Shown here: piece after piece, positions 23,601 to 34,275 of the stretch
How positions within the stretch are numbered: the first letter of the stretch is position 1
Layout: the number at the start of each line of letters is the position of its first letter
Assembly: GCA_017654855.1 (NCBI GenBank)
Contig: CM030338.1
Coordinates: 1,488,001 to 1,552,000, forward strand
Reading direction: 5' to 3'
Length of the DNA stretch: 64,000 nt
Source: Podospora anserina
Taxonomy: Eukaryota
The notes under the pieces: generated by a model
The model's database searches: none
The model's input: the letters and a program-made list of their open reading frames with translations, nothing else
Told to the model about the DNA's origin: nothing
Position numbers and translations under genes: made by a program

Positions 23601-25188
23601 ATGGCCGACCCTCTGCTGGAGTTCTTCACCCAGATGGACATCCAGGGCGGTGTTGTCGTTCAGGGTGAGTGTGCCCCTCTTCAACGACCGAACCCCGCGA
23701 TCCATCTCCCATTGCAATATCACCATTACGATCAACAACGGTAACTAATTGGTATGTACTAGATTCCCCCAAATTTGATCTCGATCTCTATATCCAAAAC
23801 TACCGCGGCCGTACCAGATTTGACCGTCTCCTCCTCATCGGCCGTAGCTCAGTAAAGCTCTGCGTCGAAGCTCTCAAGGCCGCCCTCGCCGAAGCCAAGC
23901 GTGGCCGCGACACCCAGCGATACAGAGACGTTTTTGAATACCTTCGCGTAGCTGCTCCCAATGACCCCGATGCCGTCTTTGATAAGAAATGGGTAGACAG
24001 GCAGGACGTCGCCAACCATGAAGAGACCCAACGGCTGCTCACCGAGCTAAAGGGATATAAGAACAACCTTGTCAAGGAGAGCATCCGGGTAAGCATCACC
24101 AACCTTCTTTCACGCAAACCATTCTAACCGTATGCCAAACAAAAGATGGGCAACGAAGACCTAGCCAAACATTACGAAGCAATCGGCGACCTCAACGCGG
24201 CCTCTGAGCACTACTCCAAAATGCGCCCCGACGTCTCCACGGCGAAGCACGTCATCGACGTCGGCAAACACCTCGTCCGCGTGGCCATCCAAAGAAGAGA
24301 GTGGAGCATGGTCGCGCCCCATCTCGTAAAGATGACGCTCGGGGGGCAGTACCCCGAAGAAGAGCGCAACGCCCAACCGTTCATCCGCGTAGCTTCTGGC
24401 ATCGCCCTCCTCGGCCAAGAAAAATACTGGGAAGCGGCCCTCTCCTTTCTCGACGCCGACCCAAACGTCCCGCCAAAAGCCTACAATGAACTCGCCAGCC
24501 GTAACGACATTGCCGTCTATGGCGGTTTGCTTGCGCTGGCGACAATGGACCGCAAGCAGCTCCAGAGTATGGTGTTGGAGAACCAGAATTTCAGAGTGTT
24601 TCTGGAACCGGAGCCGCACATCAGGCGGGCGGTGACGATGTTTGTTAATGGGAGGTATTCGGCTTGCATTGAGATTTTGGAGGGGTACAGGACGGATTAT
24701 CTGCTGGACATCTACCTCCAGAAGCACGTCAGCAAGATTTATGCCAAGATCAGGAGCAAGTGTGTGGTGCAGTATCTGATTCCGTTTTCGTGCGTGAGTT
24801 TGGACACGCTGGAGAAGGCGTTTGGGAGTCCAGAGAGGCCGATTGAGGAGGAGCTGGCGGTGATGATTGAGGAGGGGGTCTTGGAGGCGAGGATTGATGG
24901 GCTCGAGAGGGTAAGCTTTACTGCCTTTTTTTGTTTTTTTGGATTGTCATACGGTGTGCTAATGATGAATAACAGCTCGTCAACACAGTCAAGATTGACC
25001 CGAGAGCTCAAATGCAGGCTTCGGCATTGGTTTCTGCCGAGAATTACGAGAAGCAGGCTATTGAGCGGTTGAGAAGGATGGCGATTGCAGCTGCGGATTT
25101 GGAGCTGATGCCGACCAAGAAGCAGGGGTTGCATCTCCCGCTTGGTGGTGATATTTCTTTTGGGGATCAGGAGATTGTGATGGGTTGA
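23601..25188 (+). CDS. CSN1: COP9 signalosome subunit 1 (PCI domain)
   Basis: ATG 23601. Introns 23665-23762, 24089-24145, 24911-24975. Motifs YRGRTRFDRL, ELKGYKNNLVKESIRMGNEDL, DIAVYGGLLALAT, DYLLDIYLQKHV, LEARID. TGA at 25186-25188. Confidence 0.93.
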
Positions 25189-25519: not shown

Positions 25520-26605
25520 CTACCCCATCAACTGCCTAATATCCTCGGGCGGCCACCTCACCTGCGCAAACGTCAAGCACCGCTTGATGCTCTGCAGATA
25601 CTTTCTCGTCACCTCGCTCCCCATGATATGCCCCCTCTCTCCGTTATGGAGCTTTTCTCTTGCGCTACGTTCGTGGATACCAACCATGGTGACACCAATC
25701 GGCCAGGCGGCCTTTCCGATGCTCAGCCGTAGATACCCATCATTGGCATCGACGTATCTCTTTTCCTGGGCGGCCTTGACAATCTCCACGATGGCTTCCA
25801 GGATACTCTCGTCCAGGCCCCCCTTTTCGAAAAGCCGGAATAACGGCGCCATATTTTCCTTGGATGACACCATGGCGTTGATTGCTTGCTGGCCGGCGGT
25901 GGTGTCGGCGTTGTCTTCTCTTGCGAGCGCGGCTTCCCACTCGCGGAGGATCATGTTGAAGTAAGAGGCCAACTGGCGGTAGAGATACTTCCTTGCCTTC
26001 CTGTCGGTAGCTGGAGGGATCTTGTCCGGTACTTTCATGTCCTTTTCCTCGACAGGGAGGAGTTTGGTAGCGATTGGACCTGCAGAAAGAGACTTTGGTC
26101 TGGTAACCTTTCTGTAGCGACGTAACCTTGAAACGTGGGACTCTCCGAACAATATCGCCGGCTGGCCTAGCTCTCGGAGTTTGGACTTGAGTTCATCATC
26201 GGGGATGTCGGTGTGGTCTTGGTCGTCGTCGGAAGAGGCGTCAGAGTCGGGTTTGGGGGTGGCGGAGGAGTCGTCGTCGGTCTTGGGGGGGAGTTCTGGT
26301 AGGCCTAGACGTTTCCTTCGGGCTCGTTCCTCTTCGGCTTCTTTGGCTTCTCTGCGGAGCCGGGATTCCTCGGCGAGTTTCTGGCGTTTCTCCTCGCGGG
26401 CTTTGGCTTCCTCGGCGGCTTCCTCCTCGCGCTTGCGTTTGGCGGCTGCTCTGGCGGCCCGTTGTTCTTCGAGGGCCTTTTGCTCGGCTAGGTAGGCTGC
26501 TTGGCGTTGGGCTTCGGCTTCGCGGCGGGAGATGTACTTTTGGGGTTTTTCCTTTTCTGGTTCTTTCTTGGCTATCTCCTTAGCCATGAGAGAGGCAAAG
26601 TCCAT
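25520..26605 (-). CDS. PRP18: Pre-mRNA splicing factor Prp18
   Basis: 361-aa single ORF with the SFM motif LRELGQPAILFGE and the Prp18 domain YLRLSIGKAAWPIGVTMVGIHERSAREK..TRKYLQSIKRCLTFAQ. Confidence 0.95.
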   Translation of the reverse strand: MDFASLMAKEIAKKEPEKEKPQKYISRREAEAQRQAAYLAEQKALEEQRAARAAAKRKREEEAAEEAKAREEKRQKLAEESRLRREAKEAEEERARRKRLGLPELPPKTDDDSSATPKPDSDASSDDDQDHTDIPDDELKSKLRELGQPAILFGESHVSRLRRYRKVTRPKSLSAGPIATKLLPVEEKDMKVPDKIPPATDRKARKYLYRQLASYFNMILREWEAALAREDNADTTAGQQAINAMVSSKENMAPLFRLFEKGGLDESILEAIVEIVKAAQEKRYVDANDGYLRLSIGKAAWPIGVTMVGIHERSAREKLHNGERGHIMGSEVTRKYLQSIKRCLTFAQVRWPPEDIRQLMG

Positions 26606-27285
26606 GGTGGGTGGTGGGTGGTGTGTTGATATATGGTGTTGGTGATGGGTGGAAGCCTTGTGGTGTGTCCTGGGGGTCGGATATCAGGGTCTAGCGAACC
26701 GTTGGAAGCCGGGGAAAAGGCTGGAAAGGGGGTGTCACACAGCCAAAACAAGAGGTGAGGTTGGAAATGGAGAGATGAGGTTCCGGGAGCTGCAAGTGTT
26801 CGGGGAGTGCTCCGCTAAATAAGGTCGGCCCCAATGTCGTTGCACTAGCGTGATGCGGGAAGAGTGCTGCGCCACGATCTGGACCCACTTTGTTGACGGA
26901 TCGGCACCGGCAGGCAAGGCAGGTACTGAGGTACTCAACACGGACACACCCTGCTTGTGACAAGAACTTCACGCCCCCTGGGCTGGTTGTGGATGATATC
27001 CTCAGTCTCTGATTCCCAAGGTGGCCCGCGAACCGGGGCAGCCGGGTCGAACCTTCAGGCCGGAGTGGAGGAGAGTGAAAGCTTATCTTAGAAGGCGCCT
27101 TCCACCGCTAGGGAAGCCATTGCCCTGGGGCGTGTAACTTAGAATACGCTTTCCGAAGTCCTCAAAATCATGACAAGTCTTGTTTTCTCTCCCATAAAAT
27201 TTCTAAACTTGCCCAAATCATCTTACTACTCGTGCCCCGCGAACAAGGAGCTCTGTAAGCCATCATTGGCAGCCATCTTATCATC

Positions 27286-28087
27286 ATGTCTTCATCAAAT
27301 GGAGCCCAGAAACCAATCCACTCCAGAGTGAAACTTTTCTACCGCATCAATGTTCCCCATGAGTATGTCATCTCAAGACTGTGTATTGTGCTTGATACCG
27401 GTCAGCAAAGCTAACTGCACCTGTGTGATAGGCCAGAAGAATTTATCCAGGACCCCTTGCCTGCCCATGTTGAGCTTGATATCCCAATGACATGGTATGA
27501 CGTCGTCCAACTCTGGCCTTATTAGGCTTGCCAGTCAGCTCAGCTAACATTGTACTCTTGACAGCACAGTCAAAGACCTGGCTGATATCATGAAGAAGAA
27601 CTCGAGAAAAATCTTCCCTTCTCTTTCCGTCGGCACCCGGCTCTGCTTCCGCACTATGGACCGGTCAATTTACAGCACAAAGCCAAAATACCTTCCGTCA
27701 CCTTACGGCAGTTACGTTATCGGTCGAGGTTACCCAGGCATCGATTTACCCGCACGAGACGAGAATGACCCAGCGAGCCCCAAGCCAAAGCTCCGATGGC
27801 TGGATGGCGCTTACATTGTCTGTACCATCTTTCCGCCACTACCCAGCGACGAAGACGAACTCATTGTACCACCTGCGCTGCCGTATAAGATCAGCAGGCT
27901 AGGGCCTGATCAGCCTGGAAAGGGTATCGTAGTAGGGGGTGACCGGACGGCAAATGGAAAGGGAAAAGGACGTGAAGACGAGGATGAGGATCCCCGTCCG
28001 CCGCGCCGCGGCAACACCCGTGTCTCTAAGGGTACGTCAAGGGGACCTACTTCAAGAACGCGGGACAATGATCGCCGAGCTAATTAG
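27286..28087 (+). CDS. Divergent Sin3-associated polypeptide SAP18-like protein; possibly extends to 28456 through an in-frame UAG
   Basis: ATG 27286. Introns 27363-27431 and 27495-27564 give ...VKLFYRINVPHEPEEF..LPAHVELDIPMTCTVKDLAD..PSLSVGTRLCFR..SYVIG..DGAYIVCTIFPPL. This is collinear with the fungal SAP18 pattern as I recall it (LKLFYR..H..EF..LP.H..CTL.EL..GTRL.FR..VIG..DYI.C.I.PP). Confidence 0.72.
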
Positions 28088-29352
28088 GAGTTTGAATCCC
28101 GAGAAGATGCCTCGGGGGGTGGAGTCCACGGTCAGAAGAATGGTGTAGGGGGTTCTGTTGATGAGTTGATAAATTCGGAAGTTGATCGGGAGTGGGAGGC
28201 CTTGAAACGTCAATTGCAAGACAATCCGGAGCGAGCCCTGGATGGCGTATTGGAGATCACAAGGCGTCTAGCCGCGTGTTTTCCTTCGAATGGATCTGGT
28301 ACTAAAGCCAGCAGGGCTGGTCCCAAGAAAGGCGAAGGATCTTCCAACAATACAGCCAAAGCGAGAGATAAAGGCAAGGAAAAAGAAAAGGAGGATCCCA
28401 AGACACCGGAGAGTTGGAAGCCCTATGAATATGACCGTTTCCAGAAGAAGAAATAGCCTGATTGATAAAGGGCCTCTGTTGCGGTATCAAATTCTGTGTT
28501 AGAAACCGCCGCATCACTACACAGCAGCGTAAATCAATCATAGAGCGACGAAGATCACCATAGAGCACCGGCAGAGATCATGTTGTATTTTTAAGATTAC
28601 GATAGATTACATACTGGGGGAAAATGAGGAGTGTGTTTTTCTAGCGCACTGTGTGTAGCCCAGGGCCCTATAAATTGTCTCTGAATGTCTATGAACTATC
28701 TTCCAGAGGCCTATTGATTATTCTGAAGGCCTGGCACAAGGCTGACGTCGACCAGATGTGAGACTCCCGCAACGTCACACCTACCTACTTTCACGCAGCA
28801 AGTATTGGCCATTTCTAAACCACTGGTTTCACACCCTGGACAAAATAGCTGGCACTGCAAGGCAGTAAAACATGGTCAACTGCATACTTTTATGTTTTTA
28901 AACACGAAACATGTCTCTTGGTTGCCTTTTAAGGCCTGTTGGCTATCTTTGGACGAGGTTTGATAATATCTTGAGGCGTGGTTCAACACCCATGTTATCT
29001 GCATCCAGTTACTTTGCGGTGACAGTGATTTTTGTCCAGTGCGTATTTTTTGGCGCCACCAGCCCTTGCTATCTCTATTAGCTGCCTTGAATAACGACGG
29101 CATGTGTGGGTCTGTGACGCAGCGAGAGACACGCTTCACTGTGGAAGTGGTAAACTTTTATATATACGGGATTTGTCTGCCTCAGGCAATGATAACATAT
29201 CCACAGTCACCAAAGCAAAGCACATCATTCTGATCTTGCACCCTAGAAATGGTTCTGTTGTGTAACCCCCTCTGACAGCTTGCTTTGTGTCTGTCTTTGA
29301 CGCCCCCTTCTCATCAAGATATGTACACTTCCCCTCCGCTGACCTCCCACGT

Positions 29353-31092: not shown

Positions 31093-31803
31093 AATTGCAA
31101 AGAAGCAACAGCACAACTCGGACGAGGGGGGAAAGAAGCATTCATCAATCAAAAGATTCTGAAAATAGCACTGACGAAATGATGGGCAAAAAGGAAAGAA
31201 GTTGTCAAGTGTTAGGCATCAAAAATACGGGTAGTATCAGACAACGGGGTCCTGCCTGATTGGGTTTTTTGCACCGCCGCGATTATGGGGACTGGGGAGG
31301 AAACACATTTGAATGTTCGCTTCCGCTCATGGAACCCATGGTTGCTGCTGCTGCAATGTTCCAGAAATCGAGACAAAGACCCAATGGCCCGGCCAGAACC
31401 ACGGGGATCGATCTGATCCTTTCAATCCGAGCCATTTACCTAGCCGCATTCAGCCTCTCAGCTTACCATATCACTCAACCCTAAATAACACTGTCTTCGA
31501 AACTGGATACTGTAGGGGACGGCTTTTTCCTTTTCTCTCTTTTCTTCCATCATAAACCTCGACACTTTTTTTTTTCTCACCTCTTTTCCTCTCCTGGATT
31601 GATTTGTCTCTGACATTGGCAGTTCATCCCCATCTCTCATCGATAGGCACCAGCTTCTATCCAATAGTTCCCATTGTTTATTTTTATCCCAACCTGGACT
31701 AACAGCCCCCTGCCAAGCAAAAGGCGCACGCAGCCTTGTTGATGTCGAGCTTGAAGTCCCCTCTTATGCTGAGGCATCTCCCACCACATTTTCCACTCGC
31801 ACA

Positions 31804-34275
31804 ATGACTGCCATGGCAGCAGCACCACCGGTTTCGGCATCTTTGGAGACAGATATGGCTCGGATGACTCTTCCGCCAGTCGTGACGGAATTCCCGCCAC
31901 CACCGGCGCATGAACAGAATGGAGGACCCGCTTCTTCTTCTTCGGATGGCGCGGAGGACGATGACGACTTTGAAGATGATCAGGCCGACGCCCAATCACT
32001 CATGCAGCCGGCTATCAGCCCACTGGCCACGCTTTTTACGTCGCCAAAGACCCCCGCTGCGGAGAGGATGGCGGCTTTTGACCAGATGTCGGGGGGTGGC
32101 ATTTTTGAGAGGATCGAGGACGACCAGAGGCCGGGGATGGCTTCGCTGGATGGGACTTCGAGCCATGACAAACTACCACCACCACCTCCAAGTCATTCGT
32201 CCGAGCCAATGGCTCGGATGGCAGGAGCTACGGAACCAGCAAGTTCTCAGGCTCCTCCCCAACAACAACCCCCTATTGAGCGTATGCCAACACCATGGCA
32301 GGCAGGCCCCAAGCAGTTTCACATCACCGAGCCGGGGAGGTGGTCCTCCATGTCTATGGCCATTAGGAGCCAGTCATCAAGACACAAACGCGCATCTTCA
32401 GTTAGCGAGAATGCTATGCTGAAGAGACTCTCCAAGGCTCTCCCTTCGATATCGATTCCGTCCGGGTTCATGCCTAGCATCCCCACACCGCCCTTCTTTT
32501 CGTCTCACAGTTCCAGCAATAATACCTCACCTCAGAAGGACGAGCGGACGCCGAAAACACCGCAGACTGGTGGGATTCCTGACAGTAGCTCCCAAAGATC
32601 TGGCACCCCCAGGACCTCGTCTCTAAGACGAACAACCTCGGACGACTCACTGCTTTATCACACTCTGTCTCGAGTCTCCTCCCTAGGCGACGACACCCGC
32701 TTCGCCCACGTCCGCGAGCAAGTCAACGTTCGGATGAAGGCCATCCTCGACAGCTTTGAAGGGCCTTCGTTCAAAATGCCTCAGATGCCCAATTTGTTGA
32801 ACACGCCCCTTGTTAAGAAGTCAGCCACGGAGCCTATCTCCTCTTCCACCCCTCACCGCTCCGGCTCTTTGTCAACCACCACTACCGCCCCGCAGGATCC
32901 CTTGGACAAAGTTCTGGAAACCCTAACAGGCGACATCGTCATCATGGGCGGGTACAGGGGTTCGATCCTCCGCTCTGCCAAAGCGCCCCACCGCCGGCTA
33001 TGGGTACCAGTCAAAGTCCAGCTCAACATCCGAAAAGTCAAGCTCGAAGTCGGCCTCGACCCCCAGGATGAGCTGGACATGGGGAAGTCGATTTATGCAG
33101 ATGGGATGCTGAAGAATATCGGTCCAGTGGACATCTCTAAACGACTCTTTAAGCGCTTGAGAGAATGCGAAAACGCGCGAAGCGGAAAGTTGAGAGTTCA
33201 TGATTATGGCTACGACTGGCGGTTGAGTCCACATTTGCTCTCCAAACGACTGGTCAAGTTCCTGGAGGGCCTCCCCTCCAACCGGGCCGGGACTCCACCG
33301 TCGGAGAGGGGGGCGTGGGTGATATCGCACAGTCTGGGCGGGATCATCACCCGTCACGCGGTCAACTCCTCCCCTTCTCTCTTCCGTGGCGTCGTCTATG
33401 TCGGCGTCCCGCAACGGTGTATAAACATCCTCGGGCCCCTCCGCAACGGGGACGCGGTGCTGCTCAACGAAAAGATCCTCACGGCGCACGTAAACTTTTC
33501 CCTGAGGACAACGTTTGTTTTTTTGCCCGAGGACGGGTTTTGTTTTGTGGATAAGGAGACTGGGGAGGAGCACAGGGTTGACTTCTACGACGTGAACGAC
33601 TGGGTTCAATACCGGCTTTGCCCGTCAGTTTCCGAAGCTGCGCTGCCGGCGGTGGGGAAGGGGAGCAATGGGACTTTTAGCTCGTTGTTGAACTTGTCGG
33701 ATTCGTTGGGGAGTTTTCAGCCCTTGAGGAGCAGGAGTAATACGCAGACGAAGCGGGACAGTGGTGTTACGCTGGCGGGGAAGGATAGGAGTTTGGCGCC
33801 GCAGATGGGGTCGTCTGGGGACGATAACAGTCCAGTTGACAGCAACAGTCAGAGCGACAAGGCGAAGAACCTGGCGTATTTGGCGAGGACGCTGGCGGAG
33901 ATCAAGCAGTTTCGTGCGGAGCTCGCACACAACAAGGCTCACCAACAGAGTAATGCTTACCCTCCTTTGGCGGTCATCTACGCAAAGGACATACCCACCA
34001 CGTACGGCTGTCGGGTTTCTGGCCGGGAGGGCATCGCGCACGCTGATGCGTACGATGATCTCATGTTCAGGTCTGGGGATGGGGTGGTGCTGGCAAAGGA
34101 GGCGATGTTGCCGGAGGGATATGAGGTTGTCAAGGGGGGAAGGGTCTGCACGGATAGGGGGCATATCACCATGCTGGGGGATTTGGCTGGGGTGGGGAGG
34201 GCGTTGGAGGCGGTGGTGAGGGGACGACAGAAGGGGATTGGGATGGGGGTGCTGGAGGGGAAAGGGGGTAAATAA
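31804..34275 (+). CDS. Alpha/beta hydrolase, LCAT/phospholipase-like (yeast YJR098C-like)
   Basis: 823-aa ORF. Disordered N-terminus, then IVIMGGYRGSIL, YGYDWRLS, nucleophile elbow SHSLGG, GDGVV and a C-terminal His (RGHITML). Confidence 0.85.
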   Translation: MTAMAAAPPVSASLETDMARMTLPPVVTEFPPPPAHEQNGGPASSSSDGAEDDDDFEDDQADAQSLMQPAISPLATLFTSPKTPAAERMAAFDQMSGGGIFERIEDDQRPGMASLDGTSSHDKLPPPPPSHSSEPMARMAGATEPASSQAPPQQQPPIERMPTPWQAGPKQFHITEPGRWSSMSMAIRSQSSRHKRASSVSENAMLKRLSKALPSISIPSGFMPSIPTPPFFSSHSSSNNTSPQKDERTPKTPQTGGIPDSSSQRSGTPRTSSLRRTTSDDSLLYHTLSRVSSLGDDTRFAHVREQVNVRMKAILDSFEGPSFKMPQMPNLLNTPLVKKSATEPISSSTPHRSGSLSTTTTAPQDPLDKVLETLTGDIVIMGGYRGSILRSAKAPHRRLWVPVKVQLNIRKVKLEVGLDPQDELDMGKSIYADGMLKNIGPVDISKRLFKRLRECENARSGKLRVHDYGYDWRLSPHLLSKRLVKFLEGLPSNRAGTPPSERGAWVISHSLGGIITRHAVNSSPSLFRGVVYVGVPQRCINILGPLRNGDAVLLNEKILTAHVNFSLRTTFVFLPEDGFCFVDKETGEEHRVDFYDVNDWVQYRLCPSVSEAALPAVGKGSNGTFSSLLNLSDSLGSFQPLRSRSNTQTKRDSGVTLAGKDRSLAPQMGSSGDDNSPVDSNSQSDKAKNLAYLARTLAEIKQFRAELAHNKAHQQSNAYPPLAVIYAKDIPTTYGCRVSGREGIAHADAYDDLMFRSGDGVVLAKEAMLPEGYEVVKGGRVCTDRGHITMLGDLAGVGRALEAVVRGRQKGIGMGVLEGKGGK

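What the first reader, a model, noticed from the sequence alone, without database searches (positions are those of the whole stretch)
27286..28456. SAP18-like gene split by one in-frame UAG: candidate stage-specific A-to-I stop-codon editing that adds 122 aa
Seen: ORFs 27590-28087 and 28166-28456 are in the same frame. The only interruption is ...GCT AAT TAG GAG TTT GAA... at 28085-28087, followed by 122 open codons. The extension looks like protein: an amphipathic helix VDELINSEVDREWEALKRQLQDNPERALDGVLEITRRL, and a DKGKEKEKEDP motif echoing GKGKGREDEDEDP before the stop. The A at 28086 has U at -2/-1, G at +1 and A at +3. It lies in the 7-nt loop of a possible 6-bp hairpin (CGAGCU-AAUUAGG-AGUUUG, 28076-28094, with two G:U pairs). 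Established: Sordariomycetes such as Fusarium and Neurospora perform sexual-stage A-to-I mRNA editing that prefers UAG contexts in hairpin loops and converts premature UAG to Trp (e.g. F. graminearum PUK1, AMD1). Inference: a Sin3-HDAC/ASAP-type subunit with a short vegetative form and a long edited fruiting-body form.
Basis: partly seen in the sequence, partly recalled or inferred. Interest (0 to 1): 0.82.

Follow-up and report, generated by a model that had tools for sequence, protein, structure and literature searches.

The report
Likely edited stop in Podospora SAP18
A Podospora chromatin-repressor gene stops at a UAG followed by 122 further codons that look like real coding sequence, and indirect RNA evidence suggests the stop is sometimes rewritten by RNA editing, an ordinary mechanism in these fungi but unconfirmed here.

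Summary
The gene is Podospora anserina Pa_7_5890, a divergent SAP18 annotated as 220 aa. It ends at TAG 28085-28087, and 122 open in-frame codons follow.

RNA contigs from four runs confirm two upstream introns. Three runs read straight through 28032-28106 with TAG intact, so the candidate in-frame intron is not removed in the main mRNA.

The extension looks coding:
- Openness has p of about 0.003-0.011.
- Its codon usage exceeds all but 8 of 1058 non-ORF windows and all but 3 of 276 open simulations.
- With the late stop, the 3'UTR falls from about 480-540 nt to about 110-175 nt.

Annotated orthologues in four other Podosporaceae species (three other genera) stop at the same residue.

No A>G read was seen. 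In the deepest RNA run, however, contigs end exactly at 28027 and restart exactly at 28087. That pattern is expected from de Bruijn branch points at A28028 and A28086, both UA sites.

Best reading, at about 0.6: sexual-stage A-to-I editing turns UAG into UGG and gives a 343-aa isoform. This would be a new member of a known kind. Stage specificity, orthologue DNA and function are untested.

The parts
27286..27362 (+). exon 1 of Pa_7_5890 (starts at the ATG)
   Evidence: RNA contig joint 27362>27432 in X1, X4 and X5. The translation equals P0006.
27363..27431 (+). intron 1, 69 nt, GT..AG
   Evidence: Skipped in contigs of 3 of 4 laid RNA runs. X2 has a contig end there.
27432..27493 (+). exon 2
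   Evidence: joints; matches P0006
27494..27563 (+). intron 2, 70 nt, GT..AG
   Evidence: Skipped in contigs of 4 of 4 laid RNA runs.
27564..28084 (+). exon 3 coding part: rest of the SAP18 domain plus a charged tail ending ...SRTRDNDRRAN
   Evidence: Pfam SAP18 at 33.1 bits on the whole 220-aa protein.
28085..28087 (+). annotated stop UAG; A28086 is the candidate edited adenosine (UAG>UGG, stop>Trp)
   Evidence: Orthologues in four other species are annotated to stop at the same position. X4 contig 5 starts exactly at 28087.
28076..28094 (+). 6-bp, 7-nt-loop hairpin with A28086 as the 5th loop base
   Evidence: -2.4 kcal/mol; 11 of 200 shuffles as good. The base rate of loop position among UA sites is 18 of 42.
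28088..28453 (+). 122-codon in-frame open extension with coding-like codon usage; no Met codon inside
   Evidence: A helical hairpin is predicted at extension residues about 24-64 with pLDDT 56-70, in an otherwise poor single-sequence model.
28454..28456 (+). second stop (also TAG), with TGA three codons later
   Evidence: No contig break here in X4.
28457..28629 (+). 3' untranslated end of the mRNA
   Evidence: RNA contigs end at 28566 (X2), 28573 (X1) and 28629 (X4). There is no coding signal.
28028..28028 (+). second candidate variable adenosine (UAAG; AAG Lys > GAG Glu)
   Evidence: X4 contig 4 ends exactly at 28027; context.
28040..28040 (+). A>G difference (AGG Arg > GGG Gly) in a spliced public RNA-type contig product (P0010); the -1 base is A
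   Evidence: A 5-nt hairpin loop is predicted. Editing versus strain difference is not resolved.
28032..28106 (+). candidate 75-nt in-frame intron: present as sequence, not used in the main mRNA
   Evidence: Contigs of X1, X2 and X5 run through it with 0 gaps. No joint appears in any of the 4 runs.

Best explanation
The locus is the SAP18-family gene Pa_7_5890 of Podospora anserina, or a strain with an identical protein. One mRNA of three exons runs unspliced from the SAP18 domain through UAG 28085-28087 to about 28570-28630. In most RNA the UAG stands and gives the annotated 220-aa protein.

I infer that during sexual development the ADAT-type (Tad2/Tad3) A-to-I editing known in Sordariomycetes deaminates A28086, so the codon is read as UGG (Trp). 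Translation then continues for 122 codons to a second UAG and yields a 343-aa isoform. Its added part is a predicted helical hairpin followed by a charged, disordered Lys/Glu/Gly/Ser tail.

Shown: the gene model, the unspliced mRNA, the retained TAG, the coding-like extension, and the conserved stop position.

Inferred: the editing itself (from contig break points), its stage, and any function of the long form. That function could be altered Sin3-HDAC/ASAP partner binding, or dosage control as a destabilising tail as described for FgDbf2.
For: 1; contigs of X1 (27564-28573), X2 (27564-28566) and X5 (27978-28397) cross the site unspliced with 0 other letters. Stop and extension therefore lie on one mRNA.

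2. Openness: 60-219 of 20000 simulations reach 122 open codons.

3. Codon usage, which is independent of openness:
   - Frame 0 of the extension scores 0.192 bits per codon. The gene's own exon 3 scores 0.103, and 180 coding windows average 0.297.
   - Only 8 of 1058 non-ORF windows (stops skipped) and 3 of 276 open simulations reach the extension's score.
   - The sense frame-0 model is the best of six frame models.
   - The sequence after 28456 shows no such signal.

4. The 3'UTR would be about 480-540 nt with the early stop and about 110-175 nt with the late one (contig ends).

5. The stop position is conserved. Annotated proteins of five Podospora species, Cercophora samala, Triangularia verruculosa, T. 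setosa and Apiosordaria backusii all end ...SRTRDxDR[RQ]xN. The stop is therefore old, yet the downstream frame is still open and coding-like in this genome.

6. Contig break points in X4, the deepest run (depth 94 and 197):
   - One contig ends at 28027 and the next starts at 28087, both laid over their full length. Nothing is laid between them.
   - Logan uses k=31 and reports contigs over 150 bp (passages read). Pieces between two branch points 59 nt apart would therefore be dropped.
   - The ends abut A28028 and A28086, both preceded by U.
   - Only 42 of 1010 mRNA positions are such sites, so the chance of both ends abutting one is about 0.0017. Only 1 of the 10 TAG triplets in the mRNA coincides with a contig end.

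7. The site context (U at -1, G at +1, A at +3, hairpin loop) fits the published preference (review PMC11156358, section 5 read). Stop-loss editing affects hundreds of genes in F. graminearum and N. crassa.

8. A preprint reports the gene as differentially expressed during sexual development (10.1101/2024.12.09.627484, passage read).
Against: - No contig or read with G at 28086 was seen. Table 3 lists no other letters in any of the 4 runs.
- No 343-aa read-through product exists in the protein collection. One search found 3 hits, all covering only 56-57% of the query. One search found 42 hits, and the five closest are 220-245 aa.
- The extension has no homologue among 1.84 billion representatives, apart from a C>T-converted copy of the same locus. 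Conservation of the extension is therefore unknown.
- The contig-end argument is an inference about an assembly graph that I could not inspect. A strain mixture in that run could also produce branches.
- The hairpin is weak (-2.4 kcal/mol), and loop position has a 43% base rate.
- A28086 is the 5th base of the 7-nt loop, not the 3rd as A34 is in a tRNA anticodon loop (recalled).
- GC3 of the extension is 0.484, below the 0.60-0.76 of the 17 ORFs used for training (those with GC3 of 0.6 or more, out of the 24 long window ORFs, which range 0.436-0.764). The gene's own exon 3 is also low, at 0.538.
- My searches found no published editing catalogue for P. anserina.
Confidence: 0.6

Rival explanations
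1. Plain stop codon. The 220-aa protein is the only product, and the 122 open codons are an untranslated 3'UTR that is open and codon-biased by chance or through composition. The X4 contig ends have another cause, such as a strain mixture or an assembly artefact.
For: - All covering contigs read TAG.
- All nine annotated orthologues stop here.
- No homologue of the extension exists anywhere.
- Genome-wide, a 0.3-1% chance of openness would give some tens of such genes. First-stage readers pick them out, so there is a selection effect.
- The extension is rich in low-complexity Lys/Glu/Gly/Ser.
Against: - Openness and codon usage together are improbable: about 0.005 times about 0.01.
- The sense frame-0 model wins among six models, as it does for exon 3, while the true downstream UTR shows no signal.
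- An old stop, shared by four genera, should have let an unused frame decay.
- Both contig ends fall exactly on UA adenosines, one of them the predicted site.
Confidence: 0.22
2. The extension is translated, but by ribosomal readthrough of UAG or another recoding event, not by RNA editing.
For: Explains the coding-like extension without needing any A>G, and none was seen. Readthrough extensions are known in fungi for peroxisomal targeting (recalled, not checked here).
Against: - It does not explain sequence heterogeneity starting exactly at 28086 in X4.
- The UAG-G context is not a known leaky context (recalled).
- The extension ends ...RFQKKK, with no PTS1-like end.
- Editing of UAG is the documented, frequent route in this class of fungi.
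Confidence: 0.08
3. A minor splice isoform removes the stop, using the in-frame intron 28032..28103/28106. This joins the SAP18 part directly to the extension.
For: A GTACGT donor, a CTAAT branch-like site and AG acceptors give 72- or 75-nt in-frame introns. Contigs drop rare variants, so a minor form could be missed (caveat).
Against: - No joint appears there in any of the 4 runs, while the two real introns show joints. Three runs cross the stretch unspliced.
- The X4 contig ends (28027 and 28087) do not fit these junctions. Those junctions would place the ends at 28031 and 28106 or 28104 (my reading).
- The intron would delete the most conserved tail, RVSKGTSRGP.SRTRD.
Confidence: 0.05
4. 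Assembly or sequencing error: the genome really has TGG.
For: None found.
Against: - Five DNA-like runs from two studies hold 1.00 of the 165 sampled words.
- RNA contigs from three studies read TAG.
- Five separately annotated Podospora species end the protein here.
Confidence: 0.01

Closest known systems
Stop-loss A-to-I mRNA editing in Sordariomycetes (for example FgDBF2; 403 genes in F. graminearum, hundreds in N. crassa)
   Same: The canonical UAG stop has U at -1 and lies in a predicted hairpin loop. The in-frame extension is charged and largely disordered. The gene is regulated during sexual development.
   Different: Editing is not demonstrated here. The extension is 122 aa with coding-like codon usage and a predicted helical hairpin, against the 24-aa disordered degron of FgDbf2. 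The species has no editing catalogue that my searches could find.
Premature-stop-correction (PSC) editing, for example F. graminearum PUK1 and AMD1 (71 genes)
   Same: UAG>UGG would be needed to make a substantially longer protein. 36% of the 343 aa lies behind the stop, and that part looks like genuine coding sequence.
   Different: In PSC genes the stop interrupts a recognisable conserved domain or CDS. Here the SAP18 domain is complete before the stop. The extension has no homologue or Pfam domain, and annotators in nine species treat this stop as the gene end.
SAP18 (Sin3-associated polypeptide p18, Pfam PF06487), canonical Pezizomycotina form of about 270 aa
   Same: It has the ubiquitin-like SAP18 domain. 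hhalign gives 96.7% probability over residues 8-97 of the exon-3 product, and Pfam scores above the cut-off.
   Different: It is very divergent: 33 bits, against 122 bits for a Xylariales SAP18. The Podosporaceae proteins lack the Arg/Gly-rich tail with the G[DE]W.RGERLP motif found in 32 of the 35 distant homologues aligned. They carry ...RVSKGTSRGP.SRTRD.DRR.N instead.

Membership tests
SAP18 (Pfam PF06487) | Whole-protein score above Pfam's gathering cut-off | tested here: met
   P0006, whose exon-3 part is identical to the window translation, scores 33.1 bits against 27, E 7.7e-8. Exon 3 alone scores only 15.2 bits.
SAP18 (Pfam PF06487) | Association with Sin3-HDAC or the ASAP complex | not testable with these tools
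   There is no interaction data. The name rests on homology and on the preprint's label.
Fungal sexual-stage A-to-I mRNA editing site (stop-loss / PSC) | A in DNA but G in a fraction of the RNA at the site | tested here: inconclusive
   No other letter is listed in the 4 RNA runs. X4 has contig ends exactly flanking 28028..28086, which is consistent with branch points at both adenosines. Only contigs were available, not raw reads.
Fungal sexual-stage A-to-I mRNA editing site (stop-loss / PSC) | Restricted to, or strongly enriched in, sexual structures | not testable with these tools
Fungal sexual-stage A-to-I mRNA editing site (stop-loss / PSC) | U at -1; A or G at +1 and +3 | tested here: met
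   The context is UUAGGA. The preference is taken from review PMC11156358, section 5.
Fungal sexual-stage A-to-I mRNA editing site (stop-loss / PSC) | Edited A in a predicted hairpin loop | tested here: met
   A28086 lies in a 7-nt loop in the 19-, 61- and 101-nt folds. This discriminates poorly, since 18 of 42 UA sites do the same.
Fungal sexual-stage A-to-I mRNA editing site (stop-loss / PSC) | In-frame downstream ORF on the same mature mRNA | tested here: met
   122 open codons. Contigs of 3 runs span both parts unspliced.
PSC-type (restorative) editing | Ancestral or orthologous TGG (Trp) at the stop, with a homologous downstream protein in relatives | tested here: not met
   No homologue of the extension was found. 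hhalign stops at the SAP18 domain. The idea that the codon matches the conserved W of G[DE]W.RGERLP failed, with 1046 of 2000 shuffles scoring as well. Orthologue DNA could not be obtained.

The most novel reading that the evidence does not exclude
The UAG is a family-wide, conserved editing switch in Podosporaceae. The stop and its flanking RNA are kept because sexual-stage editing turns a short vegetative SAP18 into a 343-aa form. The added helical hairpin and basic tail of that form would change Sin3-HDAC/ASAP targeting or stability during ascus and ascospore development. That would be a functional, domain-adding stop-loss edit on a chromatin corepressor, together with neighbouring recoding sites (K>E at 28028, R>G at 28040).
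Probability: 0.3. Interest if true: 0.6.

Novelty: new member of a known kind. Interest (0 to 1): 0.45.

Why it matters
Stop-loss editing is common in Sordariomycetes, but the 2024 review reported no functionally characterised case, and the one I read, FgDbf2, adds a 24-aa degron. A 122-aa extension that looks coding, sits behind a stop conserved across four genera, and belongs to a histone-deacetylase corepressor subunit regulated in sexual development, would be a good test case. It could show whether editing adds function to a protein rather than only lowering its dosage.

It would also give a first concrete editing target in P. anserina. That species is a genetic model in which TAG>TAA and TAG>TGG alleles are easy to make. 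If the site turns out not to be edited, the locus is simply a gene with an oddly coding-like 3'UTR.

Tried and rejected
- RNA runs: no listed holder is on record as RNA. The RNA nature of X1, X2, X4 and X5 was inferred from skipped introns. The parts of X4 and X5 without cover carry no weight beyond the exact contig ends discussed.
- Whole genome and relatives: none is held for this window (error).
- Orthologue DNA: the metagenome scan with alignment A1 gave 290 pattern matches and no relative. A degenerate DNA pattern for the conserved tail gave 0 matches. The codon at the stop and the downstream frame in other genera therefore stay unknown.
- Homologues of the extension: one hit in 1.84 billion representatives. 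That hit, P0012, differs from the window only by changes explicable as C>T, so it looks like bisulfite-treated DNA of the same locus. It was rejected as an orthologue.
- The idea that TAG matches the conserved Trp of G[DE]W.RGERLP in distant SAP18 tails was rejected.
- ESM Atlas look-alikes of the extension: best score 0.76, below any useful level.
- Pfam on the extension: only a sub-threshold CBL hit, E 0.054.
- The AlphaFold single-sequence model is poor (mean pLDDT 43). Even the SAP18 domain was not folded, so it was used only for the helix hint.
- The bacterial promoter and terminator scan is irrelevant here and found nothing.
- Earlier findings of this scan: nothing on this genome, sequence or topic.
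- Literature: 'Pa_7_5890' occurs in one paper only. No P. anserina editing catalogue was found. Supplements are closed, so Fig. S5AJ and the tables of 10.1101/2024.12.09.627484, and the site lists of the editing papers, could not be checked.
Full report
**What is there.**
The region holds one gene on the + strand.
- ATG is at 27286 and TAG at 28085-28087. A stop-free frame of 122 codons follows, in the same frame, up to a second TAG at 28454-28456.
- The product up to the first TAG is identical to PODANS_7_5890 (Pa_7_5890) of Podospora anserina S mat+, annotated as 220 aa.
- Four further Podospora species carry 220-aa proteins in the same 90% cluster.
- Pfam places the protein in SAP18 just above the curated cut-off (33.1 against 27 bits). 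hhalign against 35 distant SAP18 proteins aligns the domain at 96.7% probability.
- A preprint on P. anserina sexual development calls the gene SAP18. It lists it among differentially expressed chromatin genes, with a profile 'in contrast' to KAT1/Hos-2, which rise until karyogamy and then fall (10.1101/2024.12.09.627484, passages read).

**Transcript structure.**
I laid the Logan contigs of four coded runs from four studies.
- They are RNA in fact. Two GT..AG introns are skipped: 27363-27431 in 3 of 4 runs and 27494-27563 in 4 of 4. This reproduces the annotated protein exactly.
- Across the critical stretch, contigs of X1 (27564-28573), X2 (27564-28566) and X5 (27978-28397) are colinear with the genome, with 0 other letters and 0 gaps.
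The UAG and the extension sit on the same mature transcript.
- Contigs end at 28566-28629. The 3'UTR is therefore about 480-540 nt if the first TAG is the end of the CDS, and about 110-175 nt if the second is.
- An assembly error is very unlikely. Five DNA-like runs hold all sampled words, the RNA contigs read TAG, and five species are annotated to stop there.

**Is the extension more than chance?**
- Openness alone is moderately rare: 60, 93 and 219 of 20000 first-order Markov simulations, for three composition sources. The other sense frames hold 5 and 8 stops.
- I then tested codon usage with a model trained on 17 long, GC3-rich ORFs of the window.
- Frame 0 of the extension scores 0.192 bits per codon. 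That is higher than the gene's own exon 3 (0.103) and inside the range of true coding windows (mean 0.297, sd 0.17; 47 of 180 score lower).
- With stop codons left out of the scoring, so that openness is not counted twice, only 8 of 1058 windows from stretches without long ORFs reach the extension's score. Only 3 of 276 open simulated sequences reach it.
- Among six frame models (three sense, three antisense), sense frame 0 wins for the extension, as it does for exon 3. The 300 nt after the second TAG show no preference.
- I conclude that the extension is, or very recently was, translated in this frame.

**The stop is old.**
- A profile search recovered orthologues from Cercophora samala, Triangularia verruculosa, T. 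setosa and Apiosordaria backusii. All are annotated to end at the same residue after a strongly conserved tail, RVSKGTSRG(P)P.SRTRD.DR[RQ].N.
- An unused frame behind a stop shared by four genera should have decayed. That it has not in P. anserina argues that the stop is bypassed at least sometimes.
- I could not obtain the DNA of these relatives. Whether they have TAG and an open downstream frame is the main open question.
- The extension has no detectable homologue among 1.84 billion representative proteins. The one hit is the same locus with every C read as T, which looks like bisulfite data.

**Evidence on editing itself.**
No contig shows G at 28086, and no 343-aa read-through product is in the protein collection. 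There is, however, an indirect signal.
- In X4, the deepest run (word depth 94 and 197), one contig ends exactly at 28027 and the next begins exactly at 28087. Both are laid over their whole length, and nothing lies between them.
- Logan assembles with k=31 and reports contigs longer than 150 bp (PMC12424806, passages read). Between two graph branch points 59 nt apart, every piece is at most about 119 nt and would not be reported.
- A contig that ends at 28027 and one that starts at 28087 are what branches at positions 28028 and 28086 would produce.
- Both positions are adenosines preceded by U. Such sites are 42 of 1010 positions of this mRNA, so the chance that both ends abut one is about 0.0017.
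- 28086 is the one TAG of ten in the mRNA that coincides with a contig end.
- None of the canonical splice junctions I could construct reproduces these ends.
- Separately, a spliced public contig product (P0010) differs from the genome by Arg>Gly, which is A28040>G, in the same 60-nt stretch. That site has A at -1, and a strain difference cannot be excluded.
- Taken together this looks like a small cluster of A/G-variable sites in some RNA samples. It remains an inference from assembly behaviour.

**Site features.**
- U at -1, G at +1 and A at +3 fit the published preference (PMC11156358, section 5 read).
- The hairpin exists but is weak: -2.4 kcal/mol, with 11 of 200 shuffles as good.
- Being in a predicted hairpin loop is true of 18 of 42 UA adenosines here. 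I give it little weight.

**What the extension might do.**
- It has no Pfam domain and no Atlas look-alike.
- A single-sequence AlphaFold model is poor overall (pLDDT 43). Its best-scoring part (56-70) falls on two helices covering roughly VDELINSEVDREWEALKRQLQDNPERALDGVLEITRRLAACF. The rest is a charged, disordered tail.
- The 'echo' of GKGKGREDEDEDP is a 30-nt, 70% in-frame repeat of low complexity.
- Two models are open. One is a partner-binding addition to SAP18. The other is a destabilising tail of the kind shown for FgDbf2, where stop-loss extensions are reported as disorder-rich and longer than in controls (PMC13123824, passages read).

**Comparison with what is known.**
- Editing of UAG to UGG by the Tad2/Tad3 machinery during sexual development is established in several Sordariomycetes. 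There are 71 premature-stop genes and 403 stop-loss genes in F. graminearum, and hundreds in N. crassa.
- This locus would be one more stop-loss case, in a species for which my searches found no editing catalogue.
- It is unusual in the length and coding quality of the extension and in the kind of gene involved.
- It does not meet the test for restorative (PSC) editing. No relative with Trp and a homologous downstream part was found. My idea that the codon matches the conserved Trp of the G[DE]W.RGERLP tail motif failed a shuffle test, with 1046 of 2000 shuffles as good.

**Verdict.**
I put editing of A28086 at some stage at about 0.6, and a plain stop with a chance coding-like UTR at about 0.22. 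Readthrough, a minor splice form and an assembly error share the rest.
- Novelty: new member of a known kind. Interest is moderate.

Noticed in passing
window 28238-28441 (the part of the extension matched by P0012): The protein collection holds a 68-aa 'protein' (P0012, from a Logan contig). It is this locus with every C read as T (T>I, A>V, P>F/L, S>F/L, R>C; Q>stop at its end). It looks like an assembled bisulfite-treated library, an artefact that can pass for a 68%-identical homologue.
   Followed up: partly
window 28040: A spliced public contig product (P0010, 220 aa, contig 1305 nt) has Gly for Arg. This is A28040>G, at a residue invariant in the aligned Podosporaceae orthologues (P0006, P0004, P0005) and present in T. 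setosa by inspection. The site sits in a predicted 5-nt hairpin loop, but with A rather than U at -1.
   Followed up: partly
window 27286-28087, compared with P0015-P0051: Podosporaceae SAP18 is strongly diverged: Pfam 33-43 bits, against 122 bits for a Xylariales protein. It lacks the Arg/Gly-rich tail and the G[DE]W.RGERLP motif present in 32 of the 35 distant homologues aligned. No Neurospora, Sordaria, Chaetomium or Fusarium protein appeared among the 42 hits of the profile search.
   Followed up: partly
window 28454-28465: The extension's own stop is also TAG, followed by CCT GAT TGA. A second UAG>UGG edit would add only three residues. No contig break occurs there in X4.
   Followed up: partly
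window 25523-26683 (-) and 24128-25069 (+): The upstream neighbours are a Prp18/PRP4-domain splicing factor (176.9 bits) and an RPN7 + PCI domain protein (113.8 and 52.3 bits).
   Followed up: no
window 31603-34272 (+): An 890-codon open frame with coding-like GC3 (0.644) and no Pfam match at E <= 0.001.
   Followed up: no
window 27965-27994 and 28370-28399: A 30-nt direct repeat at 70% identity, spaced 405 nt apart and in frame. It encodes KGREDEDEDP before the stop and KGKEKEKEDP in the extension. It may be low-complexity chance or the trace of an old internal duplication.
   Followed up: no
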